The notes: generated from the letters alone by a model not told the origin. A stretch of DNA of 64,000 nucleotides from an uncultured delta proteobacterium (GCA_963758155.1 CAVWUP010000007.1:12823-76822), one strand, 5' to 3'; counted from the stretch's first letter, positions 28,253 to 44,523 are shown. Made by a program: numbers and translations.

Positions 28253-28275
28253 GACGTTCTCGATCCACTCTCCAG

Positions 28276-28521
28276 CTAGCGCGGGTGCCGAATCGTAGCA
28301 GATGCCGCCCGGGGCGCAGGTGAAGAACAACCCGCGGAAACATGCTCCCGGATTGCAGCGGGGTCGAAGCGCACCAACGCGCCCACCCGGATGTGGGGCA
28401 GAAGGCCGCATTCGAGCCGGTGGTACACCCAACTCCGCGACACTTTCAGGTATGCAGCCACCTCGGTCACCGTCCACAAGCCGTCGGACACGGGAACGTC
28501 GTTCGTGTTGATCGTGTTCAT
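28276..28521 (-). CDS. xis: excisionase / AlpA-like HTH protein
   Basis: LWTVTEVAAYLKVSRSWVYHRLECGLLPHIRVG HTH, directly upstream of int. Confidence 0.7.
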   Translation of the reverse strand: MNTINTNDVPVSDGLWTVTEVAAYLKVSRSWVYHRLECGLLPHIRVGALVRFDPAAIREHVSAGCSSPAPRAASATIRHPR

Positions 28522-29458: not shown

Positions 29459-29707
29459 TCAGGGCTTGAGCCGCCACACGCCAGGCGAGACCCACTCCAC
29501 GAGCGGATCTCGTTGAACGCACTGCCGGATCTTTGCTTTCCAGTGTGGATTGATTTTCGTCCGTGGGTTGGCCTCCAGCGCGGCGTAGAGCGTGGCAAGA
29601 GGAGCCACGCCGCCGCAGCGTTGGAGCGCACCGCGGACGAGAGTTCGCCAGCTTGGCGAAACCGGCGTCACGTTCGACGTCGATGTTACGGGTTTGGTCG
29701 TGGTCAT
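29459..29707 (-). CDS. small HARE-HTH-like winged-helix protein
   Basis: ...TLYAALEANPRTKINPHWKAKIRQ...VEWVSPGVWRLKP resembles the HARE-HTH C-terminal signature. Confidence 0.35.
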   Translation of the reverse strand: MTTTKPVTSTSNVTPVSPSWRTLVRGALQRCGGVAPLATLYAALEANPRTKINPHWKAKIRQCVQRDPLVEWVSPGVWRLKP

Positions 29708-30167
29708 ATGCGTAGTCGGTTAAGAAACGAGCCCGGTCACGCAAAGGACGAACAGCCCGGAGCACCGCGAGAGCAGCCGAGATACGGCATCCCATAACTA
29801 GTAAATGGCTGTTGCGGGCCATCTGTTACTCCAACGGCTGCCGACCCGCTTGGAAGCGGTCCGTCCGGTGTTCGGCGAACCCGGGGCACGCTGTTGGGCC
29901 ACAACCCGCGTCCCGCCGCGTACCCCACACATGGGCGCCGACCACTCACTCCTTGATCATGCGCCGGCGAGGAGCGTCCGTCGCCGATCACTCGGGAAAC
30001 TCCTCTGCTGGACCCGTACCATGATCCAACATTCCTCTCAAGCGCGCACGTTCGGTGTCACCCGCCGCGTCGCAGGACGAAGCAATGTTCGCGATCCAGA
30101 TTGGCTGGGGAACGATCTGCTATGCAACGGCGGGGCGCGAGCACCGTCCGCCGTAACGGCGGTGAGT

Positions 30168-31052
30168 CTAGGAAGCCTCGACGACGTACTTGGCTTCGAG
30201 GTCACCTGCGTATTCTCGCAGGGCAGCCGGACACTGGGCATCGCTCCGGAGATAAGCGAGCACGTCCTCGATGGCGACAGCGGCCACGCGCTCGCGCGTG
30301 CTTGGATGAAGCGCAGCAAGCGCTACAGTCAGCTTGTCCCAGAGCCGGGTGTTCGCACGGGGGAGGAGAAACACAAGCTTCGAGCCGGGCAGCAGGATTA
30401 TGTGCCACACGTTGCGCAGAAACTGGTATGCGCGGAAGAACTCGGGTTCCTGAAGCATTCGTCCGTCGACATGGCCGCTCAAGGGCCGACGGTAGATGAC
30501 CTCGAGTTTGCGCCGATGCTTTTCGTCGGTGCTGGCCCTCCCAAAGTCGGCTTCGGACAACTTCACCTCACACATCACCACGGTTCCGTCGGCGAGTTGC
30601 CACTTGGCATCCAGATTCGTGCCTTCGTCCTTGTCTGGAATCGACTCGGGCTCCCACGATTCGAGCGGTGGCGCTTGCCCAAGTGCGCGAAGGAGTGAAG
30701 AACTCCCCGCTTTTGGGCCGCCGAAGAATGGGAAGAATAGATTGAACGCGAATGCCTGTGACGAATTCAGATGGTGGAAGTAGCGGTGCAACCGGACCTC
30801 GCCATTGGCGGCCAGGTGGGCTTTGACGAGGGGTTGTGCCAGGCCGAGCAGATTCGCCCACTTCTTGGCACGTGGCAGCACGTGTTCCTTGGGGACAGCT
30901 CTCCCGCGGTACTGAAACGTCCCCGGTTCGCGAATGCGAAGCACCGAGTACTTATACCTGATGAGGTGCGCGAGGAGCCGTGCTCGATATTCCATGAATG
31001 CCTGTGCGTCTTCGTGCCTCTGAATCTGATCCCGACCTCGGATCATCTTCAC
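30168..31052 (-). CDS. hypothetical protein, possible PD-(D/E)xK nuclease fold; low-GC gene
   Basis: GC clearly below neighbours. VVMCEVKLSEADFG motif is D/ExK-like. Confidence 0.45.
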   Translation of the reverse strand: MKMIRGRDQIQRHEDAQAFMEYRARLLAHLIRYKYSVLRIREPGTFQYRGRAVPKEHVLPRAKKWANLLGLAQPLVKAHLAANGEVRLHRYFHHLNSSQAFAFNLFFPFFGGPKAGSSSLLRALGQAPPLESWEPESIPDKDEGTNLDAKWQLADGTVVMCEVKLSEADFGRASTDEKHRRKLEVIYRRPLSGHVDGRMLQEPEFFRAYQFLRNVWHIILLPGSKLVFLLPRANTRLWDKLTVALAALHPSTRERVAAVAIEDVLAYLRSDAQCPAALREYAGDLEAKYVVEAS

Positions 31053-31685: not shown

Positions 31686-34600
31686 TCACGCGTCTTGTAA
31701 CCTGACGACATGAACACCATTCCCTAACACCTGCTGCGCGATGGCGACGAGGTGCTCATGGTGGGTGAAAAACAGCACCTGGGTGTGCATCGCGAGGTCC
31801 GAGAGCACGCGAAAGGCAGCCGCGGCTCTCTGGTTATCGTAATGCGCCAGTAGATCGTCCGCGACGAACGGTAACGCCAGCGACGATTCGAGGTGCATCT
31901 CAAGAGCGGCGATTCTCAGAGCAAGGTAGAGCTGGTCTGCGGTCCCAGTACTCATGCTGCCCACGACGACGCGCTGGCTGTTGCGGCGGATTCCCGCCAG
32001 ACGCGGTTCATCCTTCTCGTCCAGTTCGGCTGCCAGTTGCACAAACTCGCCGAGGGTCAGGATCGAAAATAGGCCACTCGCGCGCGCGAGTAGTGGGCCC
32101 TGTTTCTCCCGGCGAAAGCGCTCGATGGCCCAACGGAGCAGAACGAGGGCCACGCGCACTCGGATGTAGCGCTCCATGGTCTCGGTCATACTAGCGATCG
32201 CCTCATTGCGCTGCGCGGCCGCGGTGGCGGCGTCGGCTTGGCCGGCTATCGCCTCCAGTTCGCGCTGTGCATCCTTCAACGAGACCACCAACCCCTTCTG
32301 CTTGTCCGACTGATCCTGGTGATCCTGGCGCGCCTTCGCGAGCGCGAGATCGAGCAGCGACCGGTCTTCCGCGGCCAATTCGGCTACGAGTTCGTCCAGC
32401 GTAAGACCATCTCCCGTCTCGATCAGATGTTGTTCCGTCGTATCAAGTTCGCGCTGCAGTTGCCGACGTCGTTGTGAAAGCTCGATCGCCGCAGTGAGAT
32501 CGGACAGACTCCCGACCCCCGCGCTCTCCAACAGCGGCTGCAGACGCGACTGGGCCTCTTGCCTCTTCGTGACTTCCTGACGGTGCTCATCTTGGAGATC
32601 CCCAATCCGCACAATCGCCTCATCCCGCACACGCTTGGATTCCTCGGCCGAAGCTAGGCGCAGTTCCAACTCCCGGGCCGCATCCATCGGTTCTCGACCC
32701 TGGAGTTCAGGCGCGACGGCACGGACAAGCCGAGCAATCTCCTGACCGAACACTTCGAGGTCCCGGAGCATCGTTTCGATTCGCGTTTTCTCTATGCTGC
32801 CGATCTCCCGTAGTTTTCCGTCGAGATCTTGCATCAGCGACAGCGCGCGAGAAGGTACATCGGGCTCCGTGGCCTGGGGCAGACCGAACTCCGCAAGGCA
32901 TCTTGCGAGATTTTTCTGCCACTCGACCATCGCCCGTTCGGCCTCCCCGTGTCTGGCCTCGAGATCAGGAAGAGACTGGTCCAGGCTCTTGAGCTGGTTG
33001 ACGAGCGCCTGTTGGCGTGTCCGCTCATCGTCGAGCGCTCGAACCGTCTCATCCGCGAAACCGACCAGGCCTGCAAACCCACGCCCTTCAACCTCTGCGT
33101 CAGCAACCCCAGCCGCAGTCAGCGCCTCGCGTAGTCCCTGCGCTGCCGCCTCCACATCACGATCGTGTCGCTCGACCTCGTCCCTTGCGCGCTCAAACAC
33201 CGAAGCGTCGTCGAGCGCCTTCTCACGGCGCACGATCCATGCCCGAAGTTTGGCCGGCGTCTCCAGAGAAATGCCGAACCCCGCTTGAAGCCGCGCGAGA
33301 TCACTCAGCGCCGTCTCCTCTTCCAACTTGAGTTCGCGCAGACGAGTGTCGGCAGCTTCCAGTCGATGGGCACACGTCTCAATGTCGGCACGAACCTGTT
33401 GTAGGGTGACGGAAGCCTCGGCGGCATCGAACCGCCGGTCGGCCAGCAGGTCGACATCCCGCACCAGCGTCTCGAACTCGCCCAGCCTTGCTGCACTCGG
33501 CTGAGTAGTGGAGTCAACGCCCTTCTCGACAGAAGATCGCAACAACCGCCAGTTCTCGTCGCGTCGAGCGCGCGCGTGTGCGAGATCCTCTGCAGTCACC
33601 GGTTGCTCATCCCGCTCGACCTGGCGCTCCTGGAGCCGCCGTTGTTCTAGGGTCTGCGCCTCGGCCGCTCGCCCCGAGCGCGTTGCCTCCTGGTCCTTCG
33701 TGAGCCGCCGAACCCGTTCTGCAATCGCATCTAGTTCCTCCTCAGTCGGAGGCACAATCCGGCGGAGGGCTTCCAGGTCCCCGCTCCAGGGGGCAAGTTG
33801 ACCGAATGCGATGCGCATTTTCTTCTCTGCAGTCGCAACTGGCGTCTCCAGAGCACGCCGTCGAGCATCGGCATCGCCGAGCTTACGGGCCGCGGCGATG
33901 GCGTCGCAGAGAGACCCAGGAGATCCCCTGTCGCGCGACGGGTCGCGTTCCAGAGCCACTTGGCGGCGTTCGCTGCGTTTCTCTGCGAGAGCTTGCCCGG
34001 CTGCGACGCTCGTGGCAGCAAGGCCAGCGTGGCGCCCAAGGAGGTGGGAGAGATCCTCCCGCGCCAATTCGGAGGGAATCCGTCCACGCCATTCGGCCAG
34101 CGTTCCTGCGGGCCAACCGAGGCGTGTGGCAAGCTCACCAGCCTGCATTGTCAGCTGTTGACTCTCCGCCCGCCTCTTCGCAATCCCCTCGGCATGACCC
34201 GTCAGCCTATGCCTCTCCCGCGTGCTGGCCCGAATGTCTTCCACCAGGGCTAGCACCCCCTCGTCAACCAGCGTCGTGTCCCGCCTCCCCGCAGCCTTTT
34301 CAAGATCGCCGGCAATACGCGCACACGCCCCGTCGGCGAGCGCGATCTCCGTCATAGCATCCCGCACCTGTTTGTCGGCCGTCTCGGGGAGAAGAGGAAT
34401 CCTCGCCAGCCCGGTCAGATCTTCGCGCAGGTGGGTCCTTCGAGCGAGCGCGGCCGCAACACGTTTGACCCTCTCGAGGTGAGCGCATTGCCGAACGAGT
34501 CGCTTCAGCTCAGCATCCCCCTCGTTCACGGCCTTTTCGGCCTCCTGGACTTTTCGCTCCGCCTCCCTGAAGTCCTTCGCCCGAACGATCGTGTCCCGCA

Positions 34601-35186
34601 GTGCCGTGTCGGCCGAGTTGAGTAGATCAAGTGCGACGTAGTACCGCCGGCTCGCGTTGCGGCGCGGACCCCACAGCTCCTCGGCCTGACTTTCGAGGTT
34701 CTCGAACACCTCGCCGAATCGGGCCAGACCACCGCTCGCCTGGAAGAGCATCCGCCCGATATCGTCCCTGGCGTCAAGCAACTGTTTACCGCCGTTCACC
34801 AGTCCTGCATGGTCCAGGCTAAACATGCGCTCGAAAAGCGCACGATCGGTGCTGCCAAGGAAGGGCGCCAGCACGGAATCAGCGAGCACACCCTCGCTGT
34901 CGTCGAGCAACGTGTTCTTGATACCCTTGCGCCGCCGGAAGGAGAGTCGCTGATTCCCTTGCTCAAGCACCGCACCGATGCGCATCGACTTGGTATCGTG
35001 GAGAAATGAGTATGGCGTGTTGCCTGCTATGTTGAACAACACGTCGGAGAGGGCCGCACGCGTCGTCGACTTCCCCGCCTCGTTCGGACCGACGACGACG
35101 TGAAAGTCCGGCACGTGCGCCGGAAGTTCAACAACCCGATCGGTGAAGCACCCGTAGCGAGCAAGGTCAAGACGAGCGACGCGCAT
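31686..35186 (-). CDS. SbcC/YhaN-like SMC-family AAA ATPase
   Basis: Walker A GPNEAGKST, about 900 aa of coiled coil, C-terminal signature/Walker B (MSTGTADQLYLALRIA...PFVADDLLAHYD). Confidence 0.85.
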   Translation of the reverse strand: MRVARLDLARYGCFTDRVVELPAHVPDFHVVVGPNEAGKSTTRAALSDVLFNIAGNTPYSFLHDTKSMRIGAVLEQGNQRLSFRRRKGIKNTLLDDSEGVLADSVLAPFLGSTDRALFERMFSLDHAGLVNGGKQLLDARDDIGRMLFQASGGLARFGEVFENLESQAEELWGPRRNASRRYYVALDLLNSADTALRDTIVRAKDFREAERKVQEAEKAVNEGDAELKRLVRQCAHLERVKRVAAALARRTHLREDLTGLARIPLLPETADKQVRDAMTEIALADGACARIAGDLEKAAGRRDTTLVDEGVLALVEDIRASTRERHRLTGHAEGIAKRRAESQQLTMQAGELATRLGWPAGTLAEWRGRIPSELAREDLSHLLGRHAGLAATSVAAGQALAEKRSERRQVALERDPSRDRGSPGSLCDAIAAARKLGDADARRRALETPVATAEKKMRIAFGQLAPWSGDLEALRRIVPPTEEELDAIAERVRRLTKDQEATRSGRAAEAQTLEQRRLQERQVERDEQPVTAEDLAHARARRDENWRLLRSSVEKGVDSTTQPSAARLGEFETLVRDVDLLADRRFDAAEASVTLQQVRADIETCAHRLEAADTRLRELKLEEETALSDLARLQAGFGISLETPAKLRAWIVRREKALDDASVFERARDEVERHDRDVEAAAQGLREALTAAGVADAEVEGRGFAGLVGFADETVRALDDERTRQQALVNQLKSLDQSLPDLEARHGEAERAMVEWQKNLARCLAEFGLPQATEPDVPSRALSLMQDLDGKLREIGSIEKTRIETMLRDLEVFGQEIARLVRAVAPELQGREPMDAARELELRLASAEESKRVRDEAIVRIGDLQDEHRQEVTKRQEAQSRLQPLLESAGVGSLSDLTAAIELSQRRRQLQRELDTTEQHLIETGDGLTLDELVAELAAEDRSLLDLALAKARQDHQDQSDKQKGLVVSLKDAQRELEAIAGQADAATAAAQRNEAIASMTETMERYIRVRVALVLLRWAIERFRREKQGPLLARASGLFSILTLGEFVQLAAELDEKDEPRLAGIRRNSQRVVVGSMSTGTADQLYLALRIAALEMHLESSLALPFVADDLLAHYDNQRAAAAFRVLSDLAMHTQVLFFTHHEHLVAIAQQVLGNGVHVVRLQDA

Positions 35187-35193
35187 TGCAGCC

Positions 35194-36459
35194 TTAGTCA
35201 CCCGCGACACGCGCCACCAAAGCGGGGGCAATCTCTCGAATGATATCGCCGAGCCGATTCTCGCGGATCGCCGAGAGCATCGGGTCTGACGCAGTCCGGA
35301 CCTCGGGCTCTAGCTTGGAGATCATCTCCGCCAGTTCCTCCTCGAGCGCACGCAGGAGGTCAGCATCGCCGGGGGCCTGCTCCAGCATGACGTGGAGATC
35401 AGCAACAGCATCCCCCCGCGCCTCGATTTCCGCCGCGCTCCATGCGGGTTCGGTCGCCAGGCGCAGTTTTTCGATCCACAAGCGCTCCGCGCCGTGTGCG
35501 AGCGCCGCCGCTTGGAGTTCGGCGCGCACGCGCGACTCGGCGCCGAAGAGCTCACCGTGAGCCGCTGTTCTGCCAAACAACGTCACTCGAGCAGCGATTG
35601 GGCGACCGCCAGCCATATCAAGCGCGGTCACGAACCGCGCCTCGGCGCGTGCGATCGCTTCGTTGGCGGTCGCGCAGCCTTGCACGTCGACGCGAATATC
35701 TTCCCAGCGCAGAACGTCTTCGACCAGACGTGACACCGAGACGATCGCGTCTCCGTCGGCCTCGACCAGCATCGCACCTCGCGCACCCGTCTCTCGCACG
35801 TTTCGCCCCTGGAGATTGCCGGGGAACACGACCCAAGGGCGCTCGCATACGATCTCGTACTCGTGCGCGTGACCGAGTGCCCAGTACTCGTACCCTCTGC
35901 CGCGCAAATCGTCGAGATCGCACGGAGCATACGGCTCGTGCCCTTCACGGCCGCCAAGTGCGGTGTGGAGCACACCTATGTTGAGCCAACCAGGAACGCG
36001 CTCCGGGTACTGCTTGACGAGATTCTCGCTGACTGCCCGCTGTCGAAAGCTCTGCCCGTGGATTGCGACGTGTAGGTCGTCGAACTTGATGGTCTCGGCC
36101 TTGCGCGATCCGAATACGTGAACATTGTCCGGCAGACGGAGGCGCAACGATGGACTGAGGTCGCTTTCGGCGTCGTGGTTTCCATAAAGGACGACGACGC
36201 GAATGTTGGCCCCCCGCAGGCGGCCCATCTGCGCGGCAAAGAAGAGCCCCGTGTTGAAGTCTTTCCACGTGCCGTCATACAGGTCACCTGCGATGACCAC
36301 GAAGTCGACTTGTCCAGTGATCGCTTCATCAATCAAACCCTCGAAAGCTCGCCGGGGGGCCGTACGCAGCATGTCGAGCGGAGCCTCCGGGCACGAGCTG
36401 AGTCCGGACAGCGCACTGTCGAGGTGGACATCGGCGGCGTGGATGAATCGGATAGGCAT
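35194..36459 (-). CDS. SbcD/Mre11-like metallophosphoesterase nuclease
   Basis: IHAADVHLD, IAGDLYD, GNHD and ALGHAHE phosphoesterase motifs. Confidence 0.85.
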   Translation of the reverse strand: MPIRFIHAADVHLDSALSGLSSCPEAPLDMLRTAPRRAFEGLIDEAITGQVDFVVIAGDLYDGTWKDFNTGLFFAAQMGRLRGANIRVVVLYGNHDAESDLSPSLRLRLPDNVHVFGSRKAETIKFDDLHVAIHGQSFRQRAVSENLVKQYPERVPGWLNIGVLHTALGGREGHEPYAPCDLDDLRGRGYEYWALGHAHEYEIVCERPWVVFPGNLQGRNVRETGARGAMLVEADGDAIVSVSRLVEDVLRWEDIRVDVQGCATANEAIARAEARFVTALDMAGGRPIAARVTLFGRTAAHGELFGAESRVRAELQAAALAHGAERLWIEKLRLATEPAWSAAEIEARGDAVADLHVMLEQAPGDADLLRALEEELAEMISKLEPEVRTASDPMLSAIRENRLGDIIREIAPALVARVAGD

Positions 36460-36691: not shown

Positions 36692-37516
36692 TCATCCGAC
36701 GGGCAGAAATGCTGGCCCAGGAAGGCCGAGCGCGTCCGGCAGTGTTCCCCCCTGACGGATTTCGTCCAGCAGGCACATTCGAATCTCCGGCTCGGCCCCA
36801 AGCCCAGACGCGAAGTCCCTGGTGTTGGACAGCCGGCGCTCGCCCTCGGTTACAACCAGCACGACGAGACCGCTCGTGGAGAACAGCGGCATCCCGGCTG
36901 CTCGCGCGCGCACGTAGGCCAGGAGTTTCTGGCGAACCTGGGCTAGTGGCTGCCCGGCGCAGTTGACTTCCCACATGACCAAGCGAACGGCCCCGTCATT
37001 CTCGATCGTCGCGAGGCCATCCGGCACCAGCCGAGCCTCGCGGAACGGCGAGCGATTGGCCAATTCGCCGTCCAGCCTGATGTCTGTCACCGCCAGTAGC
37101 CCGTGCGTCCTGGCGGTCAGGAAAGACACCGCCACGTCCCGAACCGCCACGGCGTGTCCCAGTTTCTGGGACTGGGCGTTCAGCCGATACGGCCTGGTGT
37201 CTTCCGGGGCGAGCCCTTCGTCGCGCAACAAGGTCAGCCCACGCAGGCCGAGCGTCCACACGGTATCGCGATGAAGGGCTCCTCCCTGCAGGTGCGCGCG
37301 CAGGTACCCGTGGTCAAGTAGTGCGCGTAGGCGGCGCTGCGCCCGCCGCCGCGACGGAAATGCTAGACGCTCGATCTGGCATGTCGTCAGGAATCCTGCC
37401 CAACACAGATCCGAGAACAGCGTTCGCTCTCGGCCTGATGGCACCAAGCCGCCCGTGGGCGTGCGCGGGCATGCGCGTTTTGGGAGGCGTGATGCGTTCA
37501 CTCGAACTTCCGCCAT
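36692..37516 (-). CDS. replication-relaxation (Replic_Relax) family protein
   Basis: TLFSDLCWAGFLTTCQIERLAFPSRRRAQRRLRALLDHGYL N-terminal HTH typical of the family. Start uncertain. Confidence 0.65.
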   Translation of the reverse strand: MAEVRVNASRLPKRACPRTPTGGLVPSGRERTLFSDLCWAGFLTTCQIERLAFPSRRRAQRRLRALLDHGYLRAHLQGGALHRDTVWTLGLRGLTLLRDEGLAPEDTRPYRLNAQSQKLGHAVAVRDVAVSFLTARTHGLLAVTDIRLDGELANRSPFREARLVPDGLATIENDGAVRLVMWEVNCAGQPLAQVRQKLLAYVRARAAGMPLFSTSGLVVLVVTEGERRLSNTRDFASGLGAEPEIRMCLLDEIRQGGTLPDALGLPGPAFLPVG

Positions 37517-37833
37517 GGCAGCACCACGGCCAATTCGCACGTCTCACAGGGGAACCAGTCCGCCTCGGAACCACAAATCTCGCAGCGGCCGACCCAGCCA
37601 AGGTACTGGCCGTGGCAGGTCACGCATTCCCAACGCGCAGCTACCGCGTTCGCGTGGCCATTCGGACAAGCGAGAGATGCCGCCCAGAATGCCGGCAGGT
37701 TCTTAAGCCAACGAACGGCCCGCGGAAAAAAAGCCACCGCCACGAACACACCCACGATGGCGAACACGGGCGTCATGATGAGCATTACCCCCACGCGCGT
37801 GACCGAGATGCGCTTTGCCGCGGGCCCCGTCAT
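37498..37833 (-). CDS. membrane-anchored zinc-ribbon protein
   Basis: TM helix, then CPNGH...CVTCHG...CEICG...CETC. ATGA overlap with the upstream ATPase stop. Confidence 0.5.
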   Translation of the reverse strand: MTGPAAKRISVTRVGVMLIMTPVFAIVGVFVAVAFFPRAVRWLKNLPAFWAASLACPNGHANAVAARWECVTCHGQYLGWVGRCEICGSEADWFPCETCELAVVLPWRKFE

Positions 37834-39455
37834 CTTTGCACCCGTGGCCAGCGTGGCGGACCAAGAATTGCCGTCGGATCATCAACGACATCTGTGGTCA
37901 GTGCCGGCGGAGGTAATGGGAGTGGCGGCCTTTCGAGTTCAGCAATGGGAACTGCCGCGCTCCCCACCCTAAGCCGGCGCGCGGTTTCGACGGGCAGAAA
38001 TGCCGGAACTTCAACGTCGACATCGAGAGCACGCACGAGCTGTGCTTTGTACGGAACGCGCCGCTGCCAGAAATAGTAGGTTCGGTCCGGAAGATGTGTG
38101 ACGCCGTCCACGAGCCTAGCCAGTTCTTCCGGCGCGGTCAGGTAGGGGCTCTTTGGTCTCTCTTCCCAGGGCTGGGCTGGCTCGCGCGGGTGGCGACCAG
38201 TCACCGGGAGCATGTGGGCCATGGCCTTGGCGTCCTCGCTTGCCGCCGAGAACAACGCCTGGTGGCTGGTGTTCGTGGCCACGACCTTGGGGAGCGAACT
38301 CGAGATCCTGGCCGCGCCTGCAAGTGACTGGCTGATCAACATGAGCGCGACGCCCCGCGATCTCGCCATTGCCAAGACCCGCTCGTAGTTCTCTGCAGTC
38401 TCGTCGCCAGCGGCCAGACCCTCTTGCCATTCGTCCACTGCCATCAGCACCGGCCGCCCTGCCTCTTCCGGGCTACGTTCGAAGATCGCACGGGTTGTCT
38501 TGAGGGTGATGAGCCCGCCCCACCAGCGCGCAATGTCCTCGCAGCCGAGTGGCGGGTTGCCCAGGTTCGCCACGACGATCTTGTCGCGCATCAGCGAACG
38601 AAAGTCGATGCAGCCGCGTGCCCCCAACATCAAGCGCGTTGCAGGCAGACGCAGCAACCGGCTGAACCGCGCTTGCAGGCCGGCAGCCGAGGTAACCGGG
38701 ACCGGGCGTGCTTCGACGAAGAAACGTCGCACGTCGGCGTTCGGACTCCGCGCGGCCACGGCCGCGCGAGCGGCGGGATCCATGATCAGCGGCACCAGAT
38801 CCGGCAAGCCGAGATGACCGTCGCACACGCCCATCAAGAGCAAACTGAACAAAAGTTGGTCCTGTACGACACCCGTAGGCGCCCTGGTCATCCGCTCGAA
38901 CATCGATGCCACCTCGTAGGCCTGAGCCTCCGGTGGGACGGGGCTGTCGGGCTCACGGGCGAGAACATTGAGGGGCACGAGCCCTCCCTCAGCGAAAGGA
39001 TCGATTACGACCAGAGCGTCTATCAGCCGATTCGCGTGCTGGGGTGGAAGTTGGTCAACGAGTTCCGCGATGAGGTCACGAATCAGGGTGGCCAGATCGC
39101 CCTTGAAGTCTGTGAGGTAGATGCGCGCCGACGACGGTGACAGAACGAACAGTCGCAAGAGTTCCCTGATGATTCCAACCACCAGCCGAGTCTTGCCGGT
39201 TCCTGTGCGTCCCAACACGAGGCCGTGCCCGGCGCCCAGGAGGTCAGGGAGATTCAAGGAAACCGCGAGCGACGGGTCGAGGGCGCTAGTACCGATCCTT
39301 ATGGCCCCCGGCTGCTGGGCCAACCGCTCCATGTCTGTACGGAAGCGTGGATCAATCTGATCCCGCGCTGTGGCCCTCGCCATCGAGGCATTCTCGCGTG
39401 CCCCGGCGACAGCGCGGTCGAGGTCGATCCGACGAAACCAACTCGAAGCACCCAT
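37830..39455 (-). CDS. TraD/TrwB/FtsK-like coupling-protein ATPase
   Basis: Walker A GRTGTGKT, Walker B VLMAVDEWQ. Size and context (Replic_Relax, int) fit a DNA-transfer ATPase. Confidence 0.65.
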   Translation of the reverse strand: MGASSWFRRIDLDRAVAGARENASMARATARDQIDPRFRTDMERLAQQPGAIRIGTSALDPSLAVSLNLPDLLGAGHGLVLGRTGTGKTRLVVGIIRELLRLFVLSPSSARIYLTDFKGDLATLIRDLIAELVDQLPPQHANRLIDALVVIDPFAEGGLVPLNVLAREPDSPVPPEAQAYEVASMFERMTRAPTGVVQDQLLFSLLLMGVCDGHLGLPDLVPLIMDPAARAAVAARSPNADVRRFFVEARPVPVTSAAGLQARFSRLLRLPATRLMLGARGCIDFRSLMRDKIVVANLGNPPLGCEDIARWWGGLITLKTTRAIFERSPEEAGRPVLMAVDEWQEGLAAGDETAENYERVLAMARSRGVALMLISQSLAGAARISSSLPKVVATNTSHQALFSAASEDAKAMAHMLPVTGRHPREPAQPWEERPKSPYLTAPEELARLVDGVTHLPDRTYYFWQRRVPYKAQLVRALDVDVEVPAFLPVETARRLRVGSAAVPIAELERPPLPLPPPALTTDVVDDPTAILGPPRWPRVQR

Positions 39456-39461
39456 GACAGC

Positions 39462-39839
39462 TCACGCCGCGGGTGGATCTCCGTCCTGCGCTTGAGGCAA
39501 GTTCGGCGCGGGCGGCAGCGCGCGGCGACGCACTCGCATTGCCCTCCGATCCCCCTCGCGCCCAGTCGCTCGGGCCTCAAGCCAGGAATAACCGATCAAT
39601 GCCAGCACGACAACCAGGACGAGTAAGGCGATGTCGCCCGTGCCCGGGCCGTCCACGCCCTGCAGAAGCCCCTCGCCATGACAGTCCCGCAGACTCGCGA
39701 AGGTCAGGCCGCAGATCAGGATGACCGCCCCCCACGTCAGGGCATTGGCGGCATCGGTCGGATATCCGAGCCGCCGAACCAAGAACCGACCCACAACCGA
39801 GGCGAGGCCGAGCGCGAGAAGGAAGCCAACGACGATCAT
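39462..39839 (-). CDS. small polytopic membrane protein
   Basis: Three hydrophobic segments. ATGA overlap with the JAB stop. Confidence 0.45.
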   Translation of the reverse strand: MIVVGFLLALGLASVVGRFLVRRLGYPTDAANALTWGAVILICGLTFASLRDCHGEGLLQGVDGPGTGDIALLVLVVVLALIGYSWLEARATGREGDRRAMRVRRRALPPAPNLPQAQDGDPPAA

Positions 39840-40843
39840 GGCTCTGTACACATGGGCAAGTCGCCGGCCATGTCGATCCGCGCGACCTGGCAGATCTCGC
39901 TTTCATTCACGGTTGCGGTTGTGGATTGAAGAGTCGCACCTTCTCCTCGGGCTCGTTCCATGTCCGTGAGCCTGCGTTCAATCTCGACGGTCCTTTCATC
40001 GATCCGGGCCACGTGACCCCAGAGCGCGATGATCGCAAGAAGTGTCAACACCGCAACCGGGGCGGCCAGTTTCGGCCAAACACGGCGCATGGATGGAGCA
40101 GCGCTAGGGGGTGTCGGAATTGCGGCCGGTGGCTTGCTCTCGGTCTCCGGCTCGGCCATCTCCGGGACCTTGGGCTGCGGCCCGAAGGGCTTGAGCATCT
40201 CCCCCTCGGGTCCCCTGTACACCCCCAGCCTGGGCTCACTGAACGGATCGACGACGATGCCGATGGAGTGCGGCTGGGTCCAGGTCGACTGGTTCTTGAA
40301 ATCGGTACTTGAGTAGCGGGCGCCGTAGCGGATGTGACCATGCACCCAGCCCACCGGTATGCAGTCTGGATACAGCAATCGCGCCGCCATGCGGGTCCGC
40401 ATTTCGGAACCGAAGGACGTCCGAACGAATCCGCGCTGCGCGTCCGCTTCCGGATCTGGTACGACACCCAGGATGACGACATGATGTCCGACATCATCTA
40501 GATACACACGGCCGACCAGCAACCCGTACCACTCGCGCGGCGCCGCCTGCTTGCCAAGAACTATCGTTCGTTCCACGACAGACTCGGGAATCGCAACCTC
40601 GAAGCCCGTCGCCCCGCCGTACAAGACGTAGCCCGTTCTAGCTGAATGCCTTGGCGCGCGCCGAACGGGCTCGTCGACGACGCCCACCGGTGTGAAGCTT
40701 GGGACCGATCCGACCGTTCGTATCCGACCAGGCCTTACGGGCGGGGCGCGAAGCAACACAAAAGGATGGCGAGGCTGGACGTGTGGGGCTCTACACGGTG
40801 GAGTATCGGTTCCCAATCCTGATCGACGCGGGACCAACGACAC
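39836..40843 (-). CDS. JAB/MPN (JAMM) metallopeptidase with C-terminal TM helix and coiled coil
   Basis: EWYGLLVG (Glu), GWVHGHIRYGARYSSTD (HxH...S..D). Probable true start near 40620 (GTG/TTG). C-terminal TM (VAVLTLLAIIALWG). Confidence 0.75.
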   Translation of the reverse strand: MSLVPRRSGLGTDTPPCRAPHVQPRHPFVLLRAPPVRPGRIRTVGSVPSFTPVGVVDEPVRRAPRHSARTGYVLYGGATGFEVAIPESVVERTIVLGKQAAPREWYGLLVGRVYLDDVGHHVVILGVVPDPEADAQRGFVRTSFGSEMRTRMAARLLYPDCIPVGWVHGHIRYGARYSSTDFKNQSTWTQPHSIGIVVDPFSEPRLGVYRGPEGEMLKPFGPQPKVPEMAEPETESKPPAAIPTPPSAAPSMRRVWPKLAAPVAVLTLLAIIALWGHVARIDERTVEIERRLTDMERARGEGATLQSTTATVNESEICQVARIDMAGDLPMCTEP

Positions 40844-41352
40844 CGAGAGTGACGGTGAAGTTGGACCTATTGGCAGGCGGCAACTATCCCTTCAGCGATC
40901 CGGCAGCGATATGTCTCGGGGCGCCCCTCCCTTGGTCGCCTCACTTCCACCCCAGCAGCGGCACCGTTTGCCTAGGTGATGCATGGAGAAGCGCTCAGGG
41001 GCGGATGCTGGCCGGACAAATCGTTGTCCACATAATGCGCCTGCTCAACTTCGACGAGCCCGACCAAGAACGATATGGCGGCTGGAATCCGCCAGCGGTT
41101 CGGTACTGGCGATCAATTCTGGGGACCCGGCCACTCCATCCCGATCTGCAGTATCCGGTCTTGCCCGCGGAGGTCACGCATGCACTGTACGACGCGAACA
41201 GCAGATTCCAGCCCATCGGCGACGGCTCCGGAAGTAACAGCTTCGTTGGCGCATCAGTGGCGGCGTTCGCGCCCGCACCACTTGAAGTGATGTTCGTGCC
41301 GGTCGGCGATGCGGATGGCGGAGGCTTCCAACCGCTGGGAGGTGCCCTATGA
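40699..41352 (+). CDS. E2-like ubiquitin-conjugating fold protein
   Basis: HFHPSSGTVCLGDAW resembles the HPN...G.ICLD E2 active site. Start may be GTG near 40787. Confidence 0.6.
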   Translation: MGPIRPFVSDQALRAGREATQKDGEAGRVGLYTVEYRFPILIDAGPTTPRVTVKLDLLAGGNYPFSDPAAICLGAPLPWSPHFHPSSGTVCLGDAWRSAQGRMLAGQIVVHIMRLLNFDEPDQERYGGWNPPAVRYWRSILGTRPLHPDLQYPVLPAEVTHALYDANSRFQPIGDGSGSNSFVGASVAAFAPAPLEVMFVPVGDADGGGFQPLGGAL

Positions 41353-41477
41353 CGATGGACAACGGAATGTTGGATCGTGTGGCGGACGAAAGGAATCGGA
41401 ATGCAGGCCGCACATGACCCTGTAGTCGAATGCGAGGCGCGTGCGCAGGTGCGCGGGGCTGAGCCTGGCCATGTTCG

Positions 41478-41753
41478 TCAAGCTCCGGCGCTGGTCTCAG
41501 TGACCGGCAGATTGTCCCCGTCCTGCACACCGGCGGCGACGAGCGATGAGGATAGCGGAACGGTCGCGCCCGTGCGCTGCAACTGAAGCGCGTAGGCCCT
41601 TGTGGCGCCAGGTGCCTCGATGAAACCCGCCTTGACCAGACCGTCGATCGCCTGCTTCCCGGTGGTGCCGGGGCCCAACTCGGCCTTGAATTCGCGCGAG
41701 TCGCGCGGATGCAAAAAAACTGCGGTGATCTTTCCGTTCGTGGTTGTCGTCAT
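41478..41753 (-). CDS. ubiquitin-like (beta-grasp) small protein
   Basis: 91 aa, 4-nt spacing from the E1 stop. ...VAAGVQDGDNLPVTETSAGA C-terminus. Confidence 0.5.
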   Translation of the reverse strand: MTTTTNGKITAVFLHPRDSREFKAELGPGTTGKQAIDGLVKAGFIEAPGATRAYALQLQRTGATVPLSSSLVAAGVQDGDNLPVTETSAGA

Positions 41754-41757
41754 GTTC

Positions 41758-43032
41758 CTACTCCTGTTTGGTGTCCTCGTTCTTCTCAGTGGCCGAAGTG
41801 GCCCTGGTGTTACGCTCCTGCCTTCGCGTTTCGAACAGGTCGTCGATGTCGCCGGACAACTTCACTGCGTGCAGCTCTCCCGTCGCGCGGTCCTCGATCT
41901 CGAACACGGCCGCGGGCGGAAGGCCAAGCGTGTGACAGCGGCGCTGCACCAGCGAATGGTCGCCGGCCACCGTCGATGCGACCACCATCCCCCGGTCGCC
42001 AAGCTGGGGCAACTCGGGACACTTTGTGCAGCCCGGAGGCTGGTGTACGCCCCAGAGCGGTTTGCCAATCTCTATGGACGCCCCGCATAAGGCGCAGGGC
42101 ATCTCGACAATGAAGGGCGCCGGCAGCTGCACCACGGGCTCGGTCACGAAGGACCGAGCCGCCTCCAGAACAGCACGCAACGGCTCCTCGCAGCGCACAG
42201 CCAGCGGCCGAATTTCTCCGAGACGGCGGTGAACCCCCGGACAGTTTGGATCGGTGGTCAGATGAAGCACTCTGGTTTGGCCGGTGTGGAGATCGAGAAA
42301 GAACGCCTTCCCACCAAGCGGGAACCGCTGGTGGATCGCCTGGATCGCGTGTTCCGCAGCGAGAGCACCCAGGACCGCCGCCAGCGATTGCGTCGCCGGG
42401 ATAGCGCCCGCCTCAGCCACGCGCCGGGCGTACAAGACGCAGGATGCGGCGCCATCCTCAACCTCGGGATTGAGGCACCGCCAGCAGGCCTCGTCACCGA
42501 CGCGATTCGGGAATACAGATACCTGTCCTCGTGATCCGGAGAAACCGAGTTCCACCAGCGGGATACCCAATAAGCGGGTCGCATCGGCCAGTAGCGCACG
42601 GACCCGTAGCGAGTCGACCGCTGCAATCACCACATCAGATCCGACGAGGGCGCCGAGACCGACCTCCTCGAAACGAGCGACCGCGAAACGTACGATGGGA
42701 TCGTCAGCATAGGAGTTGGCTAGCGCGCCCATGGCTGCCTCGCGCGCCTTGAACCGCACCCGCTTGCCCGCCAGACGGCGACGGTCGAAGAGCGGTGATC
42801 TCGTTAGATTGGATGCTTCGACGCTGTCGAAGTCGATCAGTCGAAGCTCATTGACGCCGGCGAGGGCCATCGTCTGGCCCGCGTTGCAACCACCGGCTCC
42901 CAAGCCCACCACCGTGACGATTGCCGATGACATGCGCGCGCGGTCGTAGCCGGCGAGGGTCTCGCGCGAAAACAAGCCGTTGCTAGTGTTGATGTCCATC
43001 ACGTGCCCTCCCGCATATCCAGCACGGAGCAC
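41758..43032 (-). CDS. E1-like ThiF/MoeB-family activating enzyme
   Basis: VTVVGLGAGGCNAGQTMALAGVNELRLIDFDSVEASNLTR Rossmann/ATP motif, CWRC...CxxC zinc site. Start may be MDINTS (42999). Confidence 0.85.
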   Translation of the reverse strand: MLRAGYAGGHVMDINTSNGLFSRETLAGYDRARMSSAIVTVVGLGAGGCNAGQTMALAGVNELRLIDFDSVEASNLTRSPLFDRRRLAGKRVRFKAREAAMGALANSYADDPIVRFAVARFEEVGLGALVGSDVVIAAVDSLRVRALLADATRLLGIPLVELGFSGSRGQVSVFPNRVGDEACWRCLNPEVEDGAASCVLYARRVAEAGAIPATQSLAAVLGALAAEHAIQAIHQRFPLGGKAFFLDLHTGQTRVLHLTTDPNCPGVHRRLGEIRPLAVRCEEPLRAVLEAARSFVTEPVVQLPAPFIVEMPCALCGASIEIGKPLWGVHQPPGCTKCPELPQLGDRGMVVASTVAGDHSLVQRRCHTLGLPPAAVFEIEDRATGELHAVKLSGDIDDLFETRRQERNTRATSATEKNEDTKQE

Positions 43033-43198
43033 CGACTGGGGTTGCCTTATCTGTTTCGACTAGTGAGAAGTCCGACATTGGTTGGAAGCTCGCAGCGCGT
43101 TTTCCCCTTGGCTTGCGAACCGGCGGGGGAGCCGTTGGACGCGCGTCTAATCTTGTGAGGAGAAAACAAAGACCGAGAATGGCGACCAGCCCGTCCAT
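42983..43198 (-). CDS. small membrane protein with C-terminal CWICGR...DGHQH motif (paralog 1)
   Basis: N-terminal TM helix, then a C-x2-C-x6-H-x-H tail. A paralog is adjacent. Confidence 0.4.
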   Translation of the reverse strand: MDGLVAILGLCFLLTRLDARPTAPPPVRKPRGKRAASFQPMSDFSLVETDKATPVGAPCWICGRARDGHQH

Positions 43199-43213
43199 AG
43201 CGATGCCTTTCCA

Positions 43214-43489
43214 TCAATGACGGCAGAAACCGTCGGGTTGCTTGTGGTTGTGACCGTCTGGTGCACTCTTTGAGCGACCGCACACCCAGCAGGGCTGCTC
43301 CCCTGGCCCCGGCCCCATCACCGGTACAAAGGCATCGGGCGACAAGACGCGTCGGCTTCCCCATGTCCTTCTGTGCCGAGCTTCGAGAGGACGGAACGCG
43401 CGGTCCTCGCGATCCCGCAAGAACTTTGAGTATGCCTGCCCGAGCAGGAAGCCACCGATCAGACATGAAATCAGGGCTGCAATTCCCAT
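43214..43489 (-). CDS. small membrane protein with C-terminal CWVCGR...DGHNH motif (paralog 2)
   Basis: Same architecture as 42983-43198. Confidence 0.4.
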   Translation of the reverse strand: MGIAALISCLIGGFLLGQAYSKFLRDREDRAFRPLEARHRRTWGSRRVLSPDAFVPVMGPGPGEQPCWVCGRSKSAPDGHNHKQPDGFCRH

Positions 43490-44522: not shown

Positions 44523-44523
44523 G

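What the first reader, a model, noticed from the sequence alone, without database searches (positions are those of the whole stretch)
37498..40843. JAB peptidase is translationally coupled to a membrane protein, a TraD-like DNA-transfer ATPase and a Zn-ribbon membrane protein
Three ATGA overlaps link JAB, a small membrane protein, a TraD/TrwB-like ATPase and a Zn-ribbon protein, and Replic_Relax follows. This places the Ubl system in one transcription unit with the element's transfer machinery. The arrangement is unusual. It raises the possibility that the Ubl pathway modifies or regulates conjugation/transfer, or targets incoming DNA, rather than acting as a stand-alone module.
Basis: inference. 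Interest (0 to 1): 0.6.

Follow-up and report, generated by a model that had tools for sequence, protein, structure and literature searches.

The report
Ubiquitin-like system fused to DNA-transfer-like operon
A complete ubiquitin-like protein-tagging system shares one conserved operon with a membrane-tethered DNA-pump-like ATPase and a relaxase-like nuclease on integrating genetic islands of myxobacteria, a combination I could not find described, although this genome's copy is broken by a small inversion.

Summary
The gene string is real, but the details need correcting. Only two of the three claimed junctions are ATGA overlaps (JAB/3-TM and ATPase/ZnR). The 3-TM/ATPase junction is a 6-nt gap, and ZnR/Replic_Relax overlaps as GTGA. 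The cassette E1–Ubl–E2–JAB(TM)–3TM–ATPase–TM/Zn-ribbon–Replic_Relax recurs in at least 18 distinct Myxococcota loci. In every locus examined, E2, ATPase and Replic_Relax relatives lay in such cassettes.

The ATPase belongs to the FtsK–HerA superfamily. Its model resembles DptH-C, the coupling protein TrwB and HerA about equally. It fails the T4CP sequence and TM-domain tests. Replic_Relax is a wHTH plus PD-(D/E)XK nuclease, the Pfam family that CONJscan labels MOB_C relaxases.

Distant relatives carry the ATPase–ZnR–Replic_Relax trio without any Ubl genes, directly upstream of a tyrosine integrase. The trio therefore looks like the backbone of an integrative element, and the Ubl module looks like a myxobacterial addition.

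The neighbours are defence systems (IetAS, CBASS, TIR, Bil), so a defence role remains a serious rival.

In this window a 692-bp inversion splits E2 and JAB, so the Ubl arm is probably dead here.

The function is untested.

The parts
43214..43489 (-). Small ORF (91 aa) with an N-terminal TM helix and a C-terminal Zn-knuckle PCWVCG...DGHNH. First gene of the operon in this clade.
   Evidence: A paralogous motif ORF is conserved upstream of E1 in L008, L011 and L019.
42983..43198 (-). Second small Zn-knuckle ORF (71 aa, PCWICG..DGHQH). It overlaps the E1 start.
   Evidence: Homologous to the 69-aa genes L011 6271-6480 and L008 6262-6471.
41758..42999 (-). E1: a ThiF-type adenylating enzyme (413 aa from ATG 42999) with a C-terminal Zn-ribbon and tail.
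   Evidence: Pfam ThiF E 5e-30. Invariant GxGxxG, R78, D140, the crossover-loop Cys198, CxxC...CxxxH and C313/C316/C335/C338.
41478..41753 (-). Ubl (91 aa). An invariant Gly90 is followed by a variable tail of 1-5 residues (here Ala).
   Evidence: Weak Pfam YukD beta-grasp hits in 5 of 12 members. Fused to E2 in L003 and L013.
41390..41472 (-). Orphaned 5' end of E2 (first ~27 codons, MARLSPAHLRTRLAFDYRVMCGLHSDS), left behind by the inversion.
   Evidence: blastn and manual junction analysis against L011. This N-terminal segment is conserved in the family.
40699..41390 (+). Inverted 692-bp segment. It carries E2 codons ~28 to the end (40699..41352, with the catalytic HPSSGTVCLG) and the first 14 codons of JAB (41349..41390).
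   Evidence: Window 40698-41193 (+) matches L011 8069-8564, with exact junctions and only a 3-nt CTT microhomology. No flanking inverted repeats. The same arrangement is present in L007.
39836..40698 (-). JAB/JAMM peptidase body (from native codon 15, SFTPVG...) with a C-terminal TM anchor and coiled coil. It lacks its native start codon.
   Evidence: Pfam Prok-JAB. EWYGLLVG and HGHIRYGARYSSTD motifs conserved in 13 loci. TM helix at residues 212-230.
39462..39839 (-). Small 3-TM membrane protein with a conserved RRRALPPxP tail. It overlaps the JAB stop codon (ATGA).
   Evidence: Present directly upstream of the ATPase in all cassettes.
37830..39455 (-). FtsK-HerA-superfamily ATPase (541 aa) with Walker A GTGKT, Walker B DEWQE and a helical insertion at residues ~175-291. 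No TM segment.
   Evidence: Pfam DUF87/FtsK/AAA_22 weak hits. PADLOC mad8 E 2e-14. AF2 pLDDT 88.9. Foldseek: DptH-C, TrwB, HerA. Profile vs PDB: EccC/FtsK/HerA P-loop.
37498..37833 (-). Membrane-anchored Zn-ribbon protein (111 aa). One N-terminal TM helix, then CPNGH...CxxC...CxxC...CxxC (8 ligands).
   Evidence: Nearly always immediately upstream of Replic_Relax (one exception, L019, has a ~200-aa gene between them), including when the pair is inverted (L003, L018) and in Ubl-less relatives.
36692..37501 (-). Replic_Relax (PF13814, MOB_C-type) protein: an N-terminal wHTH plus a C-terminal PD-(D/E)XK nuclease fold.
   Evidence: Pfam E 1e-15. AF2 pLDDT 92.8. Foldseek hits to FokI/PaqCI/EcoO109I and MarR-type wHTH. 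Invariant H121, R126, P165-D166, E183, K197. Literature: PMC3424549, PMC5357655.
26864..28804 (-). Tyrosine integrase (the ORF is over-extended at its 5' end) at the island edge, downstream of the cassette on the same strand.
   Evidence: Pfam Phage_integrase E 4.5e-20. Housekeeping genes lie to the left of it. The same relative position is seen in L001, L003, L008/10, L011, L013, L015, L027, and adjacent in L029, L034, L040.

Best explanation
The finding is the distal half of a conserved 8-10-gene operon carried by integrative genomic islands of Myxococcota: (two small TM/Zn-knuckle proteins)-E1-Ubl-E2-JAB(TM)-3TM-ATPase-TM/Zn-ribbon-Replic_Relax.

The older core is the membrane-tethered trio of ATPase, Zn-ribbon protein and Replic_Relax. 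In distant relatives this trio occurs without any Ubl genes, preceded by other membrane proteins or lipoproteins and followed directly by a tyrosine integrase. By homology, I read the trio as the island's own DNA-processing and coupling module. Replic_Relax (wHTH plus restriction-endonuclease fold, MOB_C type) would bind and nick or cut the element's DNA. A hexameric T4CP/FtsK-like ATPase, held at the membrane by the 3-TM protein and the TM-anchored Zn-ribbon protein, would engage or pump that DNA. This parallels the T4CP + MOB_C pairs mobB-mobC of CloDF13 and traW-traX of pAD1.

A myxobacterial lineage inserted a complete thioester-type Ubl cascade in front of the trio. JAB would trim the 1-5 residues after the invariant Ubl glycine, or cut Ubl-E2 fusions. 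E1 (Cys198) would activate the Ubl, and a eukaryote-like UBC E2 (HPxSGxVC) would pass it to a target. JAB's own TM anchor places deconjugation beside the ATPase complex. Because the genes always co-occur, the Ubl arm most likely acts on or with this membrane machine, licensing or restraining it, rather than as a free-standing module.

Shown: gene content, conservation, co-occurrence, folds, catalytic motifs, integrase linkage, the Ubl-less trio and the inversion. Inferred: DNA nicking or pumping, any role in transfer, the Ubl target, and the direction of regulation.

In this particular genome a 692-bp inversion has removed the conserved N-terminus of E2 and the start of JAB. The Ubl arm is therefore probably non-functional here.
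For: Conserved cassette:
- It is found in at least 18 distinct loci: L001, L003, L005, L008, L011, L013-L020, L023-L025, L027, L028.
- All E2-bearing loci examined also carry the ATPase.
- The most distant Replic_Relax hits are still inside cassettes.
- Genes are packed with overlapping stop and start codons.

ATPase:
- Confident model; Foldseek gives TrwB E 2e-10 with ~480 aligned columns.

Replic_Relax:
- Pfam 58.8 bits against a cut-off of 25.3.
- wHTH + REase model with an invariant D...E...K.
- Assigned to PD-(D/E)XK (PMC3424549) and equated with MOB_C (PMC5357655).

Ubl-less trio:
- ATPase-ZnR-Replic_Relax occurs in 11 or more metagenomic loci.
- A same-strand integrase lies 0.2-1 kb downstream in L029, L034 and L040/41/49.
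- In Ubl cassettes the integrase lies 3-8.5 kb downstream on the same strand in 9 loci.
- The integrase is the island edge in the window.

Ubl arm:
- E1, Ubl, E2 and JAB catalytic features are intact family-wide.

Inversion:
- Mapped.
Against: - No T4SS (VirB4-type) or other conjugation gene appears in any flank listed.
- The ATPase fails the sequence-level T4CP tests. It has no T4SS-DNA_transf, TraG-D_C or TrwB_AAD_bind Pfam hit. TrwB is absent from the profile-vs-PDB hits, whereas EccC, FtsK, HerA and DptH are present. It has no TM domain.
- DptH-C (a Dnd defence protein) is the top structural match, and defence HerA proteins score like TrwB. PADLOC mad8 is the best named sequence relative.
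- Among 72,556 plasmids there is only one weak ATPase hit and no Replic_Relax hit.
- No conserved intergenic oriT-like sequence was found next to Replic_Relax between the window and L011.
- Integrases near closely related cassettes are unrelated or only 25-39% identical, so the cassette is not locked to one integrase.
- Every annotated neighbourhood contains known defence systems.
- No precedent is known to me for Ubl conjugation in DNA transfer.
Confidence: 0.45

Rival explanations
1. The whole cassette is an anti-phage or anti-plasmid defence system. A membrane-tethered T4CP/HerA-like ATPase senses or reels in invading DNA at its point of entry. The wHTH-REase (Replic_Relax), parked at the membrane by the Zn-ribbon anchor, cleaves that DNA. 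The Bil-like or Cap2/Cap3-like Ubl arm primes the machine, restrains it, or tags invader proteins. The cassette travels as cargo of integrative islands.
For: - Known defence systems flank the cassettes on both sides: IetA/IetS (PADLOC E 1e-61, NCBIfam IteS); REase-ARP and an SbcD-like/AAA_27 pair; CBASS with HORMA/TRIP13; GmrSD and TIR/SEFIR; HNH+NACHT inserted within the system; type III RM and a BilD-type operon.
- The best named relatives of the ATPase are defence proteins: mad8, DptH-C and Sir2/DUF4297-HerA.
- All characterised bacterial E1/E2/JAB operons act in immunity (PMC10557695; 10.1101/2024.11.21.623953).
- Integrases differ between close cassette relatives.
- No T4SS genes are present, and the family is almost absent from plasmids.
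- The inversion that breaks the system would fit loss of a costly or autoimmune system.
Against: - The ATPase-ZnR-Replic_Relax trio sits immediately upstream of a same-strand integrase in unrelated, Ubl-less lineages. This is typical of element backbone rather than cargo.
- The cassette keeps the same side and orientation relative to the integrase in 9 Ubl-bearing loci.
- Replic_Relax is the MOB_C relaxase family.
- No PADLOC model hits JAB, E2, ZnR or Replic_Relax.
- No homologue was found on viral contigs, which is neutral evidence.
Confidence: 0.33
2. These are two independent modules that merely share a promoter. A stand-alone Bil-like Ubl defence module landed upstream of the island's ATPase/relaxase genes and hitch-hikes, with no functional interaction between the two.
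For: - The trio exists without Ubl genes.
- Ubl operons elsewhere are self-sufficient four-gene systems (PMC10557695).
- The ZnR-Replic_Relax pair can be separated from the ATPase by up to ~5 kb or inverted.
Against: - This E2 family was never seen without the ATPase in any locus examined.
- E1-Ubl-E2-JAB-3TM-ATPase is strictly contiguous in all loci.
- JAB has acquired a TM anchor and overlaps the 3-TM gene.
- In L028 Replic_Relax has moved to the front of the same operon and is still retained.
- Such persistence across 38-84% ATPase identity argues for selection on the combination.
Confidence: 0.1
3. The cassette is a protein (not DNA) translocation or extraction machine. Ubl-tagged substrates are threaded by the FtsK/EccC-like ATPase at the membrane while the anchored JAB strips the tag. 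This is the proteasome-lid/Rpn11 logic, or a T7SS-like arrangement of EssC plus the Ubl YukD.
For: - The profile's best PDB sequence match is the T7SS ATPase EccC (E 2e-13), and NCBIfam gives T7SS_EccC_a.
- The Ubl gives weak YukD hits.
- There are several small membrane partners.
Against: - The EccC match covers only the P-loop and Walker B segments and is inflated by EccC's three ATPase domains.
- A DNA-binding wHTH-nuclease is an obligate partner.
- No WXG100-type substrate genes were seen.
Confidence: 0.05

Closest known systems
T4CP + MOB_C relaxase mobilisation pairs (CloDF13 mobB-mobC; pAD1 traW-traX)
   Same: An FtsK/HerA-superfamily, TrwB-like ATPase is encoded next to a Replic_Relax/MOB_C protein with wHTH + PD-(D/E)XK architecture. 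The genes are carried on a mobile (here integrative) element next to an integrase. The gene pairing in CloDF13 and pAD1 is from my own knowledge. The CloDF13 record held here was too poorly annotated to compare.
   Different: The ATPase has no TM domain and no T4CP Pfam signature. A TM-anchored Zn-ribbon protein is inserted between the two genes. No T4SS or oriT was identified. The family is virtually absent from plasmids. An entire Ubl cascade is co-operonic.
BilABCD (type I/II Bil) antiviral ubiquitin-like conjugation systems
   Same: Separate Ubl, E2 (catalytic Cys), JAB and E1 genes. The Ubl has a universally conserved Gly followed by a short non-conserved tail that must be removed (compare PMC10557695). 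Located in defence islands.
   Different: Gene order is E1-Ubl-E2-JAB rather than Ubl-E2-JAB-E1. The E1 is a single ThiF domain plus a Zn ribbon, with no BilD_N/IAD/CYS domain hit. The E2 profile matches eukaryotic UBC (UBE2W/UBC9) rather than CEHH/Prok-E2 families. JAB is membrane-anchored. There are four or more extra obligate genes. A genuine BilD-type operon sits separately beside the cassette in L025.
Type II CBASS Cap2/Cap3 and Type I Bub (BubAB Ubl-E2 fusion)
   Same: E1/E2/JAB chemistry is used as a regulatory layer on another machine (CBASS). Ubl-E2 fusion proteins that need JAB cleavage occur in L003 and L013, as in BubAB (10.1101/2024.11.21.623953). E1 gives weak PADLOC Cap2 'E1-E2' hits.
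   Different: E1 and E2 are separate proteins and both keep a catalytic Cys, whereas Bub uses Ser/Tyr oxyesters. There is no CD-NTase and no DUF6527/BubE.
Defence ATPases of the same superfamily: DptH/DndH C-domain, MADS mad8, Sir2-HerA / DUF4297-HerA
   Same: Best structural match is 7es4, DptH-C (E 6e-12, TM 0.66 on the target). Best named HMM is mad8 (E 2e-14). HerA defence complexes match at E ~1e-9. The pairing of an ATPase with a nuclease follows the same logic.
   Different: No HAS-barrel N-domain (the N-terminus is helical). No Sir2, DUF4297, Dnd or MADS partner genes. The ATPase is membrane-tethered through separate small proteins.

Membership tests
Type IV coupling protein (TraD/TrwB/VirD4) | RecA-like NBD of the FtsK-HerA type with Walker A and Walker B | tested here: met
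   GTGKT and DEWQE are invariant. P-loop matches to FtsK/EccC/HerA.
Type IV coupling protein (TraD/TrwB/VirD4) | All-alpha domain inserted in the NBD, with overall fold similarity to TrwB | tested here: inconclusive
Type IV coupling protein (TraD/TrwB/VirD4) | N-terminal transmembrane domain in the same polypeptide | tested here: not met
   No hydrophobic segment in the ATPase. A separate 3-TM protein is encoded immediately upstream.
Type IV coupling protein (TraD/TrwB/VirD4) | Sequence-family match (Pfam T4SS-DNA_transf / TraG-D_C / TrwB_AAD_bind, or TrwB by profile) | tested here: not met
   None at E<=0.1. TrwB is not among the PDB profile hits at E<=1, and DotL scores only 0.19. NCBIfam CD1115 VirD4-like gives E 0.006 on 25 residues only.
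Type IV coupling protein (TraD/TrwB/VirD4) | Encoded with a relaxase and (for conjugative elements) a T4SS | tested here: inconclusive
   A MOB_C-type Replic_Relax is nearby in nearly all loci; it was not found within the fetched flanks of L023 and L024. No VirB4 or other T4SS Pfam family appears in any flank.
MOB_C relaxase / Replic_Relax (PF13814) | Pfam PF13814 match above the gathering score | tested here: met
   58.8 bits against 25.3. All 34 aligned relatives match. Ubl-less relatives score up to 154 bits.
MOB_C relaxase / Replic_Relax (PF13814) | N-terminal wHTH plus PD-(D/E)XK nuclease fold with conserved acidic and Lys residues | tested here: met
   AF2 pLDDT 92.8. Foldseek gives FokI, PaqCI and EcoO109I plus MarR/ArsR wHTH, all weak (best E 5e-4). 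Invariant P165-D166, E183, K197. PD-(D/E)XK assignment in PMC3424549.
MOB_C relaxase / Replic_Relax (PF13814) | Site- and strand-specific nicking at an oriT | not testable with these tools
   No conserved intergenic sequence next to the gene between the window and L011. No local inverted repeats in the conserved region near the integrase.
BilABCD ubiquitin-like defence system | Ubl with a conserved C-terminal Gly plus a removable tail; E2 with catalytic Cys; JAMM-motif JAB; adenylating E1 with Cys | tested here: met
BilABCD ubiquitin-like defence system | Family-level homology of the four proteins (BilD_N / multidomain E1, CEHH or Bil-type E2) and a stand-alone four-gene operon | tested here: not met
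   No BilD_N or Prok-E2 hit at Pfam significance; one member gave Prok-E2_B at E 0.14. No PADLOC hit for JAB or E2. Different gene order and four or more additional obligate genes. A BilD_N-containing operon is a separate neighbour in L025.
HerA-type defence ATPase (Sir2-HerA, DUF4297-HerA, HerA-NurA) | HerA central domain plus N-terminal HAS barrel, paired with a Sir2, DUF4297 or NurA effector | tested here: not met
   DUF87 is borderline (24.4 bits against 23.2). PADLOC HerA models match only residues ~44-129. The N-terminus of the model is helical. No such effector gene is present.
Type VII secretion ATPase EccC/EssC | Multiple tandem FtsK-like ATPase domains with N-terminal TM helices, within an ESX or Yuk locus | tested here: not met
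   A single ATPase domain. The matches are limited to P-loop and Walker B segments and lie far below the NCBIfam cut-offs (33.6 bits against 509).

The most novel reading that the evidence does not exclude
Ubiquitin-like conjugation is an integral control or targeting step of a T4SS-independent, membrane-embedded DNA-handling machine carried by integrative elements. For example, the Ubl may be attached to the relaxase-like nuclease, to the coupling ATPase, or to a protein that pilots DNA, in order to license, direct or abort DNA transfer or entry, with the membrane-anchored JAB removing the tag at the pore. This would be the first link between ubiquitin-type tagging and horizontal DNA movement in bacteria. 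It involves a eukaryote-like UBC E2.
Probability: 0.25. Interest if true: 0.85.

Novelty: new variant of a known kind. Interest (0 to 1): 0.62.

Why it matters
Bacterial E1/E2/JAB/Ubl operons are so far known as compact immune modules (Bil, Bub, CBASS Cap2/3). Here a canonical, thioester-type cascade with a UBC-like E2 is locked into one operon with a membrane-tethered coupling-protein-like ATPase and a MOB_C-type nuclease that otherwise travel with integrases.

If the two halves work together, ubiquitin-like tagging has a new kind of client in bacteria: a DNA-handling membrane machine of a mobile element. That would give a testable case of how ubiquitin-type signalling was wired to other machines before eukaryotes.

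The work also defines a previously unannotated ATPase-ZnR-Replic_Relax-integrase backbone, with 273 ATPase cluster representatives at E<=1e-30. This backbone may represent an unrecognised class of integrative mobilisable elements, or of defence modules.

Tried and rejected
- Programmed invertible switch for the E2 segment: rejected. There are no flanking inverted repeats, only a 3-nt microhomology.
- Assembly artefact for the inversion: unlikely. The junctions are clean and the same arrangement is present in the NCBI record L007, but read-level data were not available.
- sigma-70 promoter and terminator scans across the operon: uninformative. No promoters were found, and the terminator-like hits lie inside genes with poor T-tracts.
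- Rfam on the whole window: nothing. tRNA scan: none.
- The Ubl profile against PDB and the Replic_Relax profile against PDB gave only noise.
- PHROGs gave nothing useful.
- CloDF13 as a direct MobB/MobC comparator: abandoned because the held record is frameshifted and unannotated.
- hhalign found no link between E1/Ubl/E2/JAB/3TM and the unknown membrane proteins upstream of the Ubl-less trio.
- Literature searches for this combination (Ubl/JAB with FtsK, HerA, relaxase or Replic_Relax) found no description. Burroughs 2015 (NAR) was not held.
- The gene-like 434-aa ORF at 28518..29822 was rejected as coding. It has junk-like composition, no family hit and no codon periodicity.

Full report
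**1. What is at the coordinates**

The window has 63% G+C. Its ATPase is identical over the 517 aa annotated in the NCBI record of a Polyangia (Myxococcota) MAG. On the minus strand lie:
- a JAB ORF, 39836..40843;
- a 3-TM protein, 39462..39839;
- a 541-aa ATPase, 37830..39455;
- a TM + Zn-ribbon protein, 37498..37833;
- a Replic_Relax protein, 36692..37501.

Read from the sequence, the junctions are as follows. JAB/3-TM and ATPase/ZnR are ATGA overlaps. ZnR/Replic_Relax is a GTGA overlap, which is the start used in the twin record L007. The 3-TM/ATPase junction is a 6-nt spacer, not an overlap.

**2. The operon is larger than the finding, and broken in this genome**

Upstream on the same strand are E1 (ThiF, 41758..42999), a 91-aa Ubl (41478..41753), and two small TM/Zn-knuckle ORFs (42983..43489).

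The UBC-like E2 body lies on the opposite strand (40699..41352). Comparison with the collinear relatives L011 and L008 shows a 692-bp inversion. Its breakpoints are in E2 codon ~27 and JAB codon 14. The junctions share only a 3-nt CTT microhomology, and there are no flanking inverted repeats.

The consequences are:
- JAB has lost its start codon and 14 residues.
- E2 has lost a conserved N-terminal segment.

The same arrangement is present in the NCBI record L007, which is 99.99% identical to the window. The Ubl arm is probably inactive here. The remaining genes are intact and full length compared with relatives.

**3. Conservation**

The order E1-Ubl-E2-JAB-3TM-ATPase-(0-5 kb)-ZnR-Replic_Relax recurs in at least 18 non-redundant loci. 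These were recovered through the ATPase, E2 and Replic_Relax searches. Where named, they are Myxococcota MAGs, with one exception whose contig is labelled Patescibacteria. ATPase identities range from 38 to 84%.

- E1 through ATPase is strictly contiguous in all loci that include that region.
- ZnR-Replic_Relax is a nearly constant adjacent pair; in one locus (L019) a ~200-aa gene lies between the two. The pair can be displaced or inverted (L003, L018) or moved ahead of E1 (L028).
- The pair was not found within the fetched flank in L023 and L024.
- Every E2-family locus examined also carries the ATPase.
- Ubl-E2 fusions occur in L003 and L013.
- A ~200-aa unknown gene often sits near ZnR (usually between the ATPase and ZnR) in the divergent clade, but not in the window clade.

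**4. The parts**

*Ubl arm.* E1 keeps GxGxxG, the ATP/Mg residues, a crossover-loop Cys198, a Zn site and a C-terminal Zn ribbon. The Ubl has an invariant Gly followed by 1-5 variable residues, as described for BilA (PMC10557695), and gives weak YukD beta-grasp hits. The E2 profile matches eukaryotic UBC enzymes (UBE2W, UBC9, UBE2K) across the YPF...HP..G.iC core (E 3e-4), but no Prok-E2 family at significance. JAB has an intact E...HxHx7Sx2D motif and a C-terminal TM helix.

*ATPase.* It gives only weak DUF87, FtsK and AAA_22 Pfam hits. The best named HMM is PADLOC mad8 (E 2e-14). Profile-vs-PDB hits are EccC, FtsK, HerA and YjgR P-loops, but not TrwB. A confident AF2 model (pLDDT 88.9) matches DptH-C (E 6e-12), TrwB (2e-10, near full length) and defence or archaeal HerA (1e-9) about equally. 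It has a helical insertion reminiscent of the T4CP all-alpha domain, but no TM segment. It is best described as an unclassified FtsK-HerA-superfamily branch with a T4CP-like fold.

*Replic_Relax.* It is a clear PF13814 member. Its model (pLDDT 92.8) is a wHTH followed by a restriction-endonuclease fold with invariant D166, E183 and K197. This agrees with the published PD-(D/E)XK assignment (PMC3424549). PF13814 corresponds to the CONJscan MOB_C relaxase class (PMC5357655).

**5. The decisive comparative result**

An exhaustive profile search finds 273 ATPase cluster representatives at E<=1e-30 and 1771 at E<=1e-10. Full-length relatives at 26-32% identity were fetched from metagenomes. They carry ATPase-ZnR-Replic_Relax without any E1, Ubl, E2 or JAB. 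They are preceded by unrelated membrane proteins or lipoproteins. They are followed within 0.2-1 kb by a same-strand tyrosine integrase in L029, L034 and L040/41/49.

In the Ubl-bearing cassettes, an integrase (often with an HTH_17 Xis-like gene) also lies downstream on the same strand, 3-8.5 kb away, in nine loci including the window (26864..28804). There the integrase marks the island edge next to housekeeping genes.

The trio therefore behaves like the backbone of a family of integrative elements. The Ubl cascade is a lineage-specific insertion into that operon.

**6. Weighing function**

For a DNA-processing or transfer role:
- the MOB_C family assignment;
- the TrwB-like fold;
- the relaxase-next-to-coupling-ATPase arrangement known from CloDF13 and pAD1 (own knowledge);
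- the integrase linkage.

Against it, and in favour of defence:
- no T4SS genes in any flank;
- failure of the T4CP sequence and TM tests;
- near absence from 72,556 plasmids, and none on viral contigs;
- no conserved oriT-like intergenic DNA;
- unrelated integrases next to close cassette relatives;
- flanks dense with defence systems: IetAS, CBASS, GmrSD, TIR, NACHT/HNH, type III RM and a separate Bil operon.

I put the element-backbone reading with a coupled Ubl layer at ~0.45, a dedicated defence system at ~0.33, mere co-transcription of independent modules at ~0.1, and a protein-translocation machine at ~0.05. In all readings the strict co-occurrence, and the TM anchor on JAB next to the 3-TM/ATPase genes, argue that the Ubl arm acts at this membrane complex.

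**7. Novelty**

I found no description of this combination in the searchable literature. The components are known kinds. Their obligate fusion, the Ubl-less trio-integrase backbone, and a membrane-anchored JAB appear new. I rate it a new variant of a known kind, of good but unproven interest (0.62). All members come from uncultured Myxococcota, and nothing has been tested experimentally.

Noticed in passing
window 40699-41390 (junctions at ~40699 and ~41390): A 692-bp inversion relative to all relatives. It splits E2 (codon ~27) and JAB (codon 14). There is only a 3-nt CTT microhomology and no inverted repeats. It is also present in NCBI record L007. It probably inactivates the Ubl arm in this genome.
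   Followed up: yes
window 28570-29920: A ~1.3-kb stretch between the island cargo and the integrase. It is conserved at 78-83% nt identity with L008, L010 and L011 and is almost free of indels. Its substitutions show no codon periodicity (149/122/124, against 333/72/110 in the ATPase control). It may contain one small wHTH-like ORF (...GVAPLATLYAALEANPRTKINPHWKAKIRQC...). There is no Rfam hit and no local inverted repeat. It could be a large RNA, a cluster of tiny genes, or a cis-acting DNA region (att/oriT).
   Followed up: partly
window 43611-46917 (+): An IetA/IetS anti-phage pair (AAA ATPase + S8 peptidase), divergently transcribed from the cassette. PADLOC IetA E 1e-61; NCBIfam IteS E 3e-26. 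The same neighbour is present in L011 and L008.
   Followed up: partly
window 30168-36459 (-): An SbcD/Mre11-like metallophosphoesterase (35194..36459) plus a 1166-aa AAA_27/SMC_N-like ATPase (31686..35186), immediately downstream of Replic_Relax. A REase-ARP/PDDEXK_13 nuclease follows (30168..31052). These are probably further defence cargo, syntenic with L011.
   Followed up: partly
window 42983-43489 (-); L008 5885-6471; L011 6259-6480; L019 5590-6162: Small ORFs upstream of E1 (two in the window and in L008; one detected in L011 and in L019) sharing the motif PCW[IV]CG...(D)GHxH; an N-terminal TM helix was predicted for the 91-aa window ORF only. They were not called by most gene finders. 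They are probably the first genes of the operon in this clade.
   Followed up: partly
E2 C-termini (e.g. window 41300-41349 +) and Ubl-less ATPase C-termini (P0259, P0273, P0283 and others): E2 proteins end in an acidic linker followed by [FL]xP[LIV]G plus 0-3 residues (32 of 77 match strictly). One clade of Ubl-less ATPases ends exactly in FPxLG-COOH. This may be a shared docking peptide or a second E1/JAB substrate, similar to the CD-NTase tails of type II CBASS. Untested.
   Followed up: partly
L025 14067-17811: A separate Bil-type operon (YukD/DUF2604 Ubl, a Y4jH-like protein, a BilD_N+ThiF E1) lies directly downstream of the cassette. The two Ubl systems coexist as distinct neighbours.
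   Followed up: no
L005/L021 7053-8583: Two tandem E2 paralogues (227 and 218 aa) lie between Ubl and JAB in one Myxococcaceae MAG.
   Followed up: no
L001 12105-12737 and homologues in L003, L013-L016, L018-L020, L024, L025: A ~200-aa soluble protein family of unknown function, in two paralogous subtypes. It usually lies between the ATPase and ZnR in the divergent clade and is absent from the window clade. No Pfam or PHROG hit.
   Followed up: partly
L022 (Herpetosiphon aurantiacus plasmid pHAU01, Haur_5107-5109): This is the only plasmid-borne relative of the ATPase (27% identity, E 2e-5). It is part of a 991-aa hypothetical protein two genes downstream of a VirB4-like gene. It is a remote hint of a T4SS-associated ancestry.
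   Followed up: no
window 52607-53638 (+): An ORF with a weak zf-IS66 transposase zinc-finger hit (E 1e-4). The surrounding 47-57 kb ORFs have no family hits.
   Followed up: no
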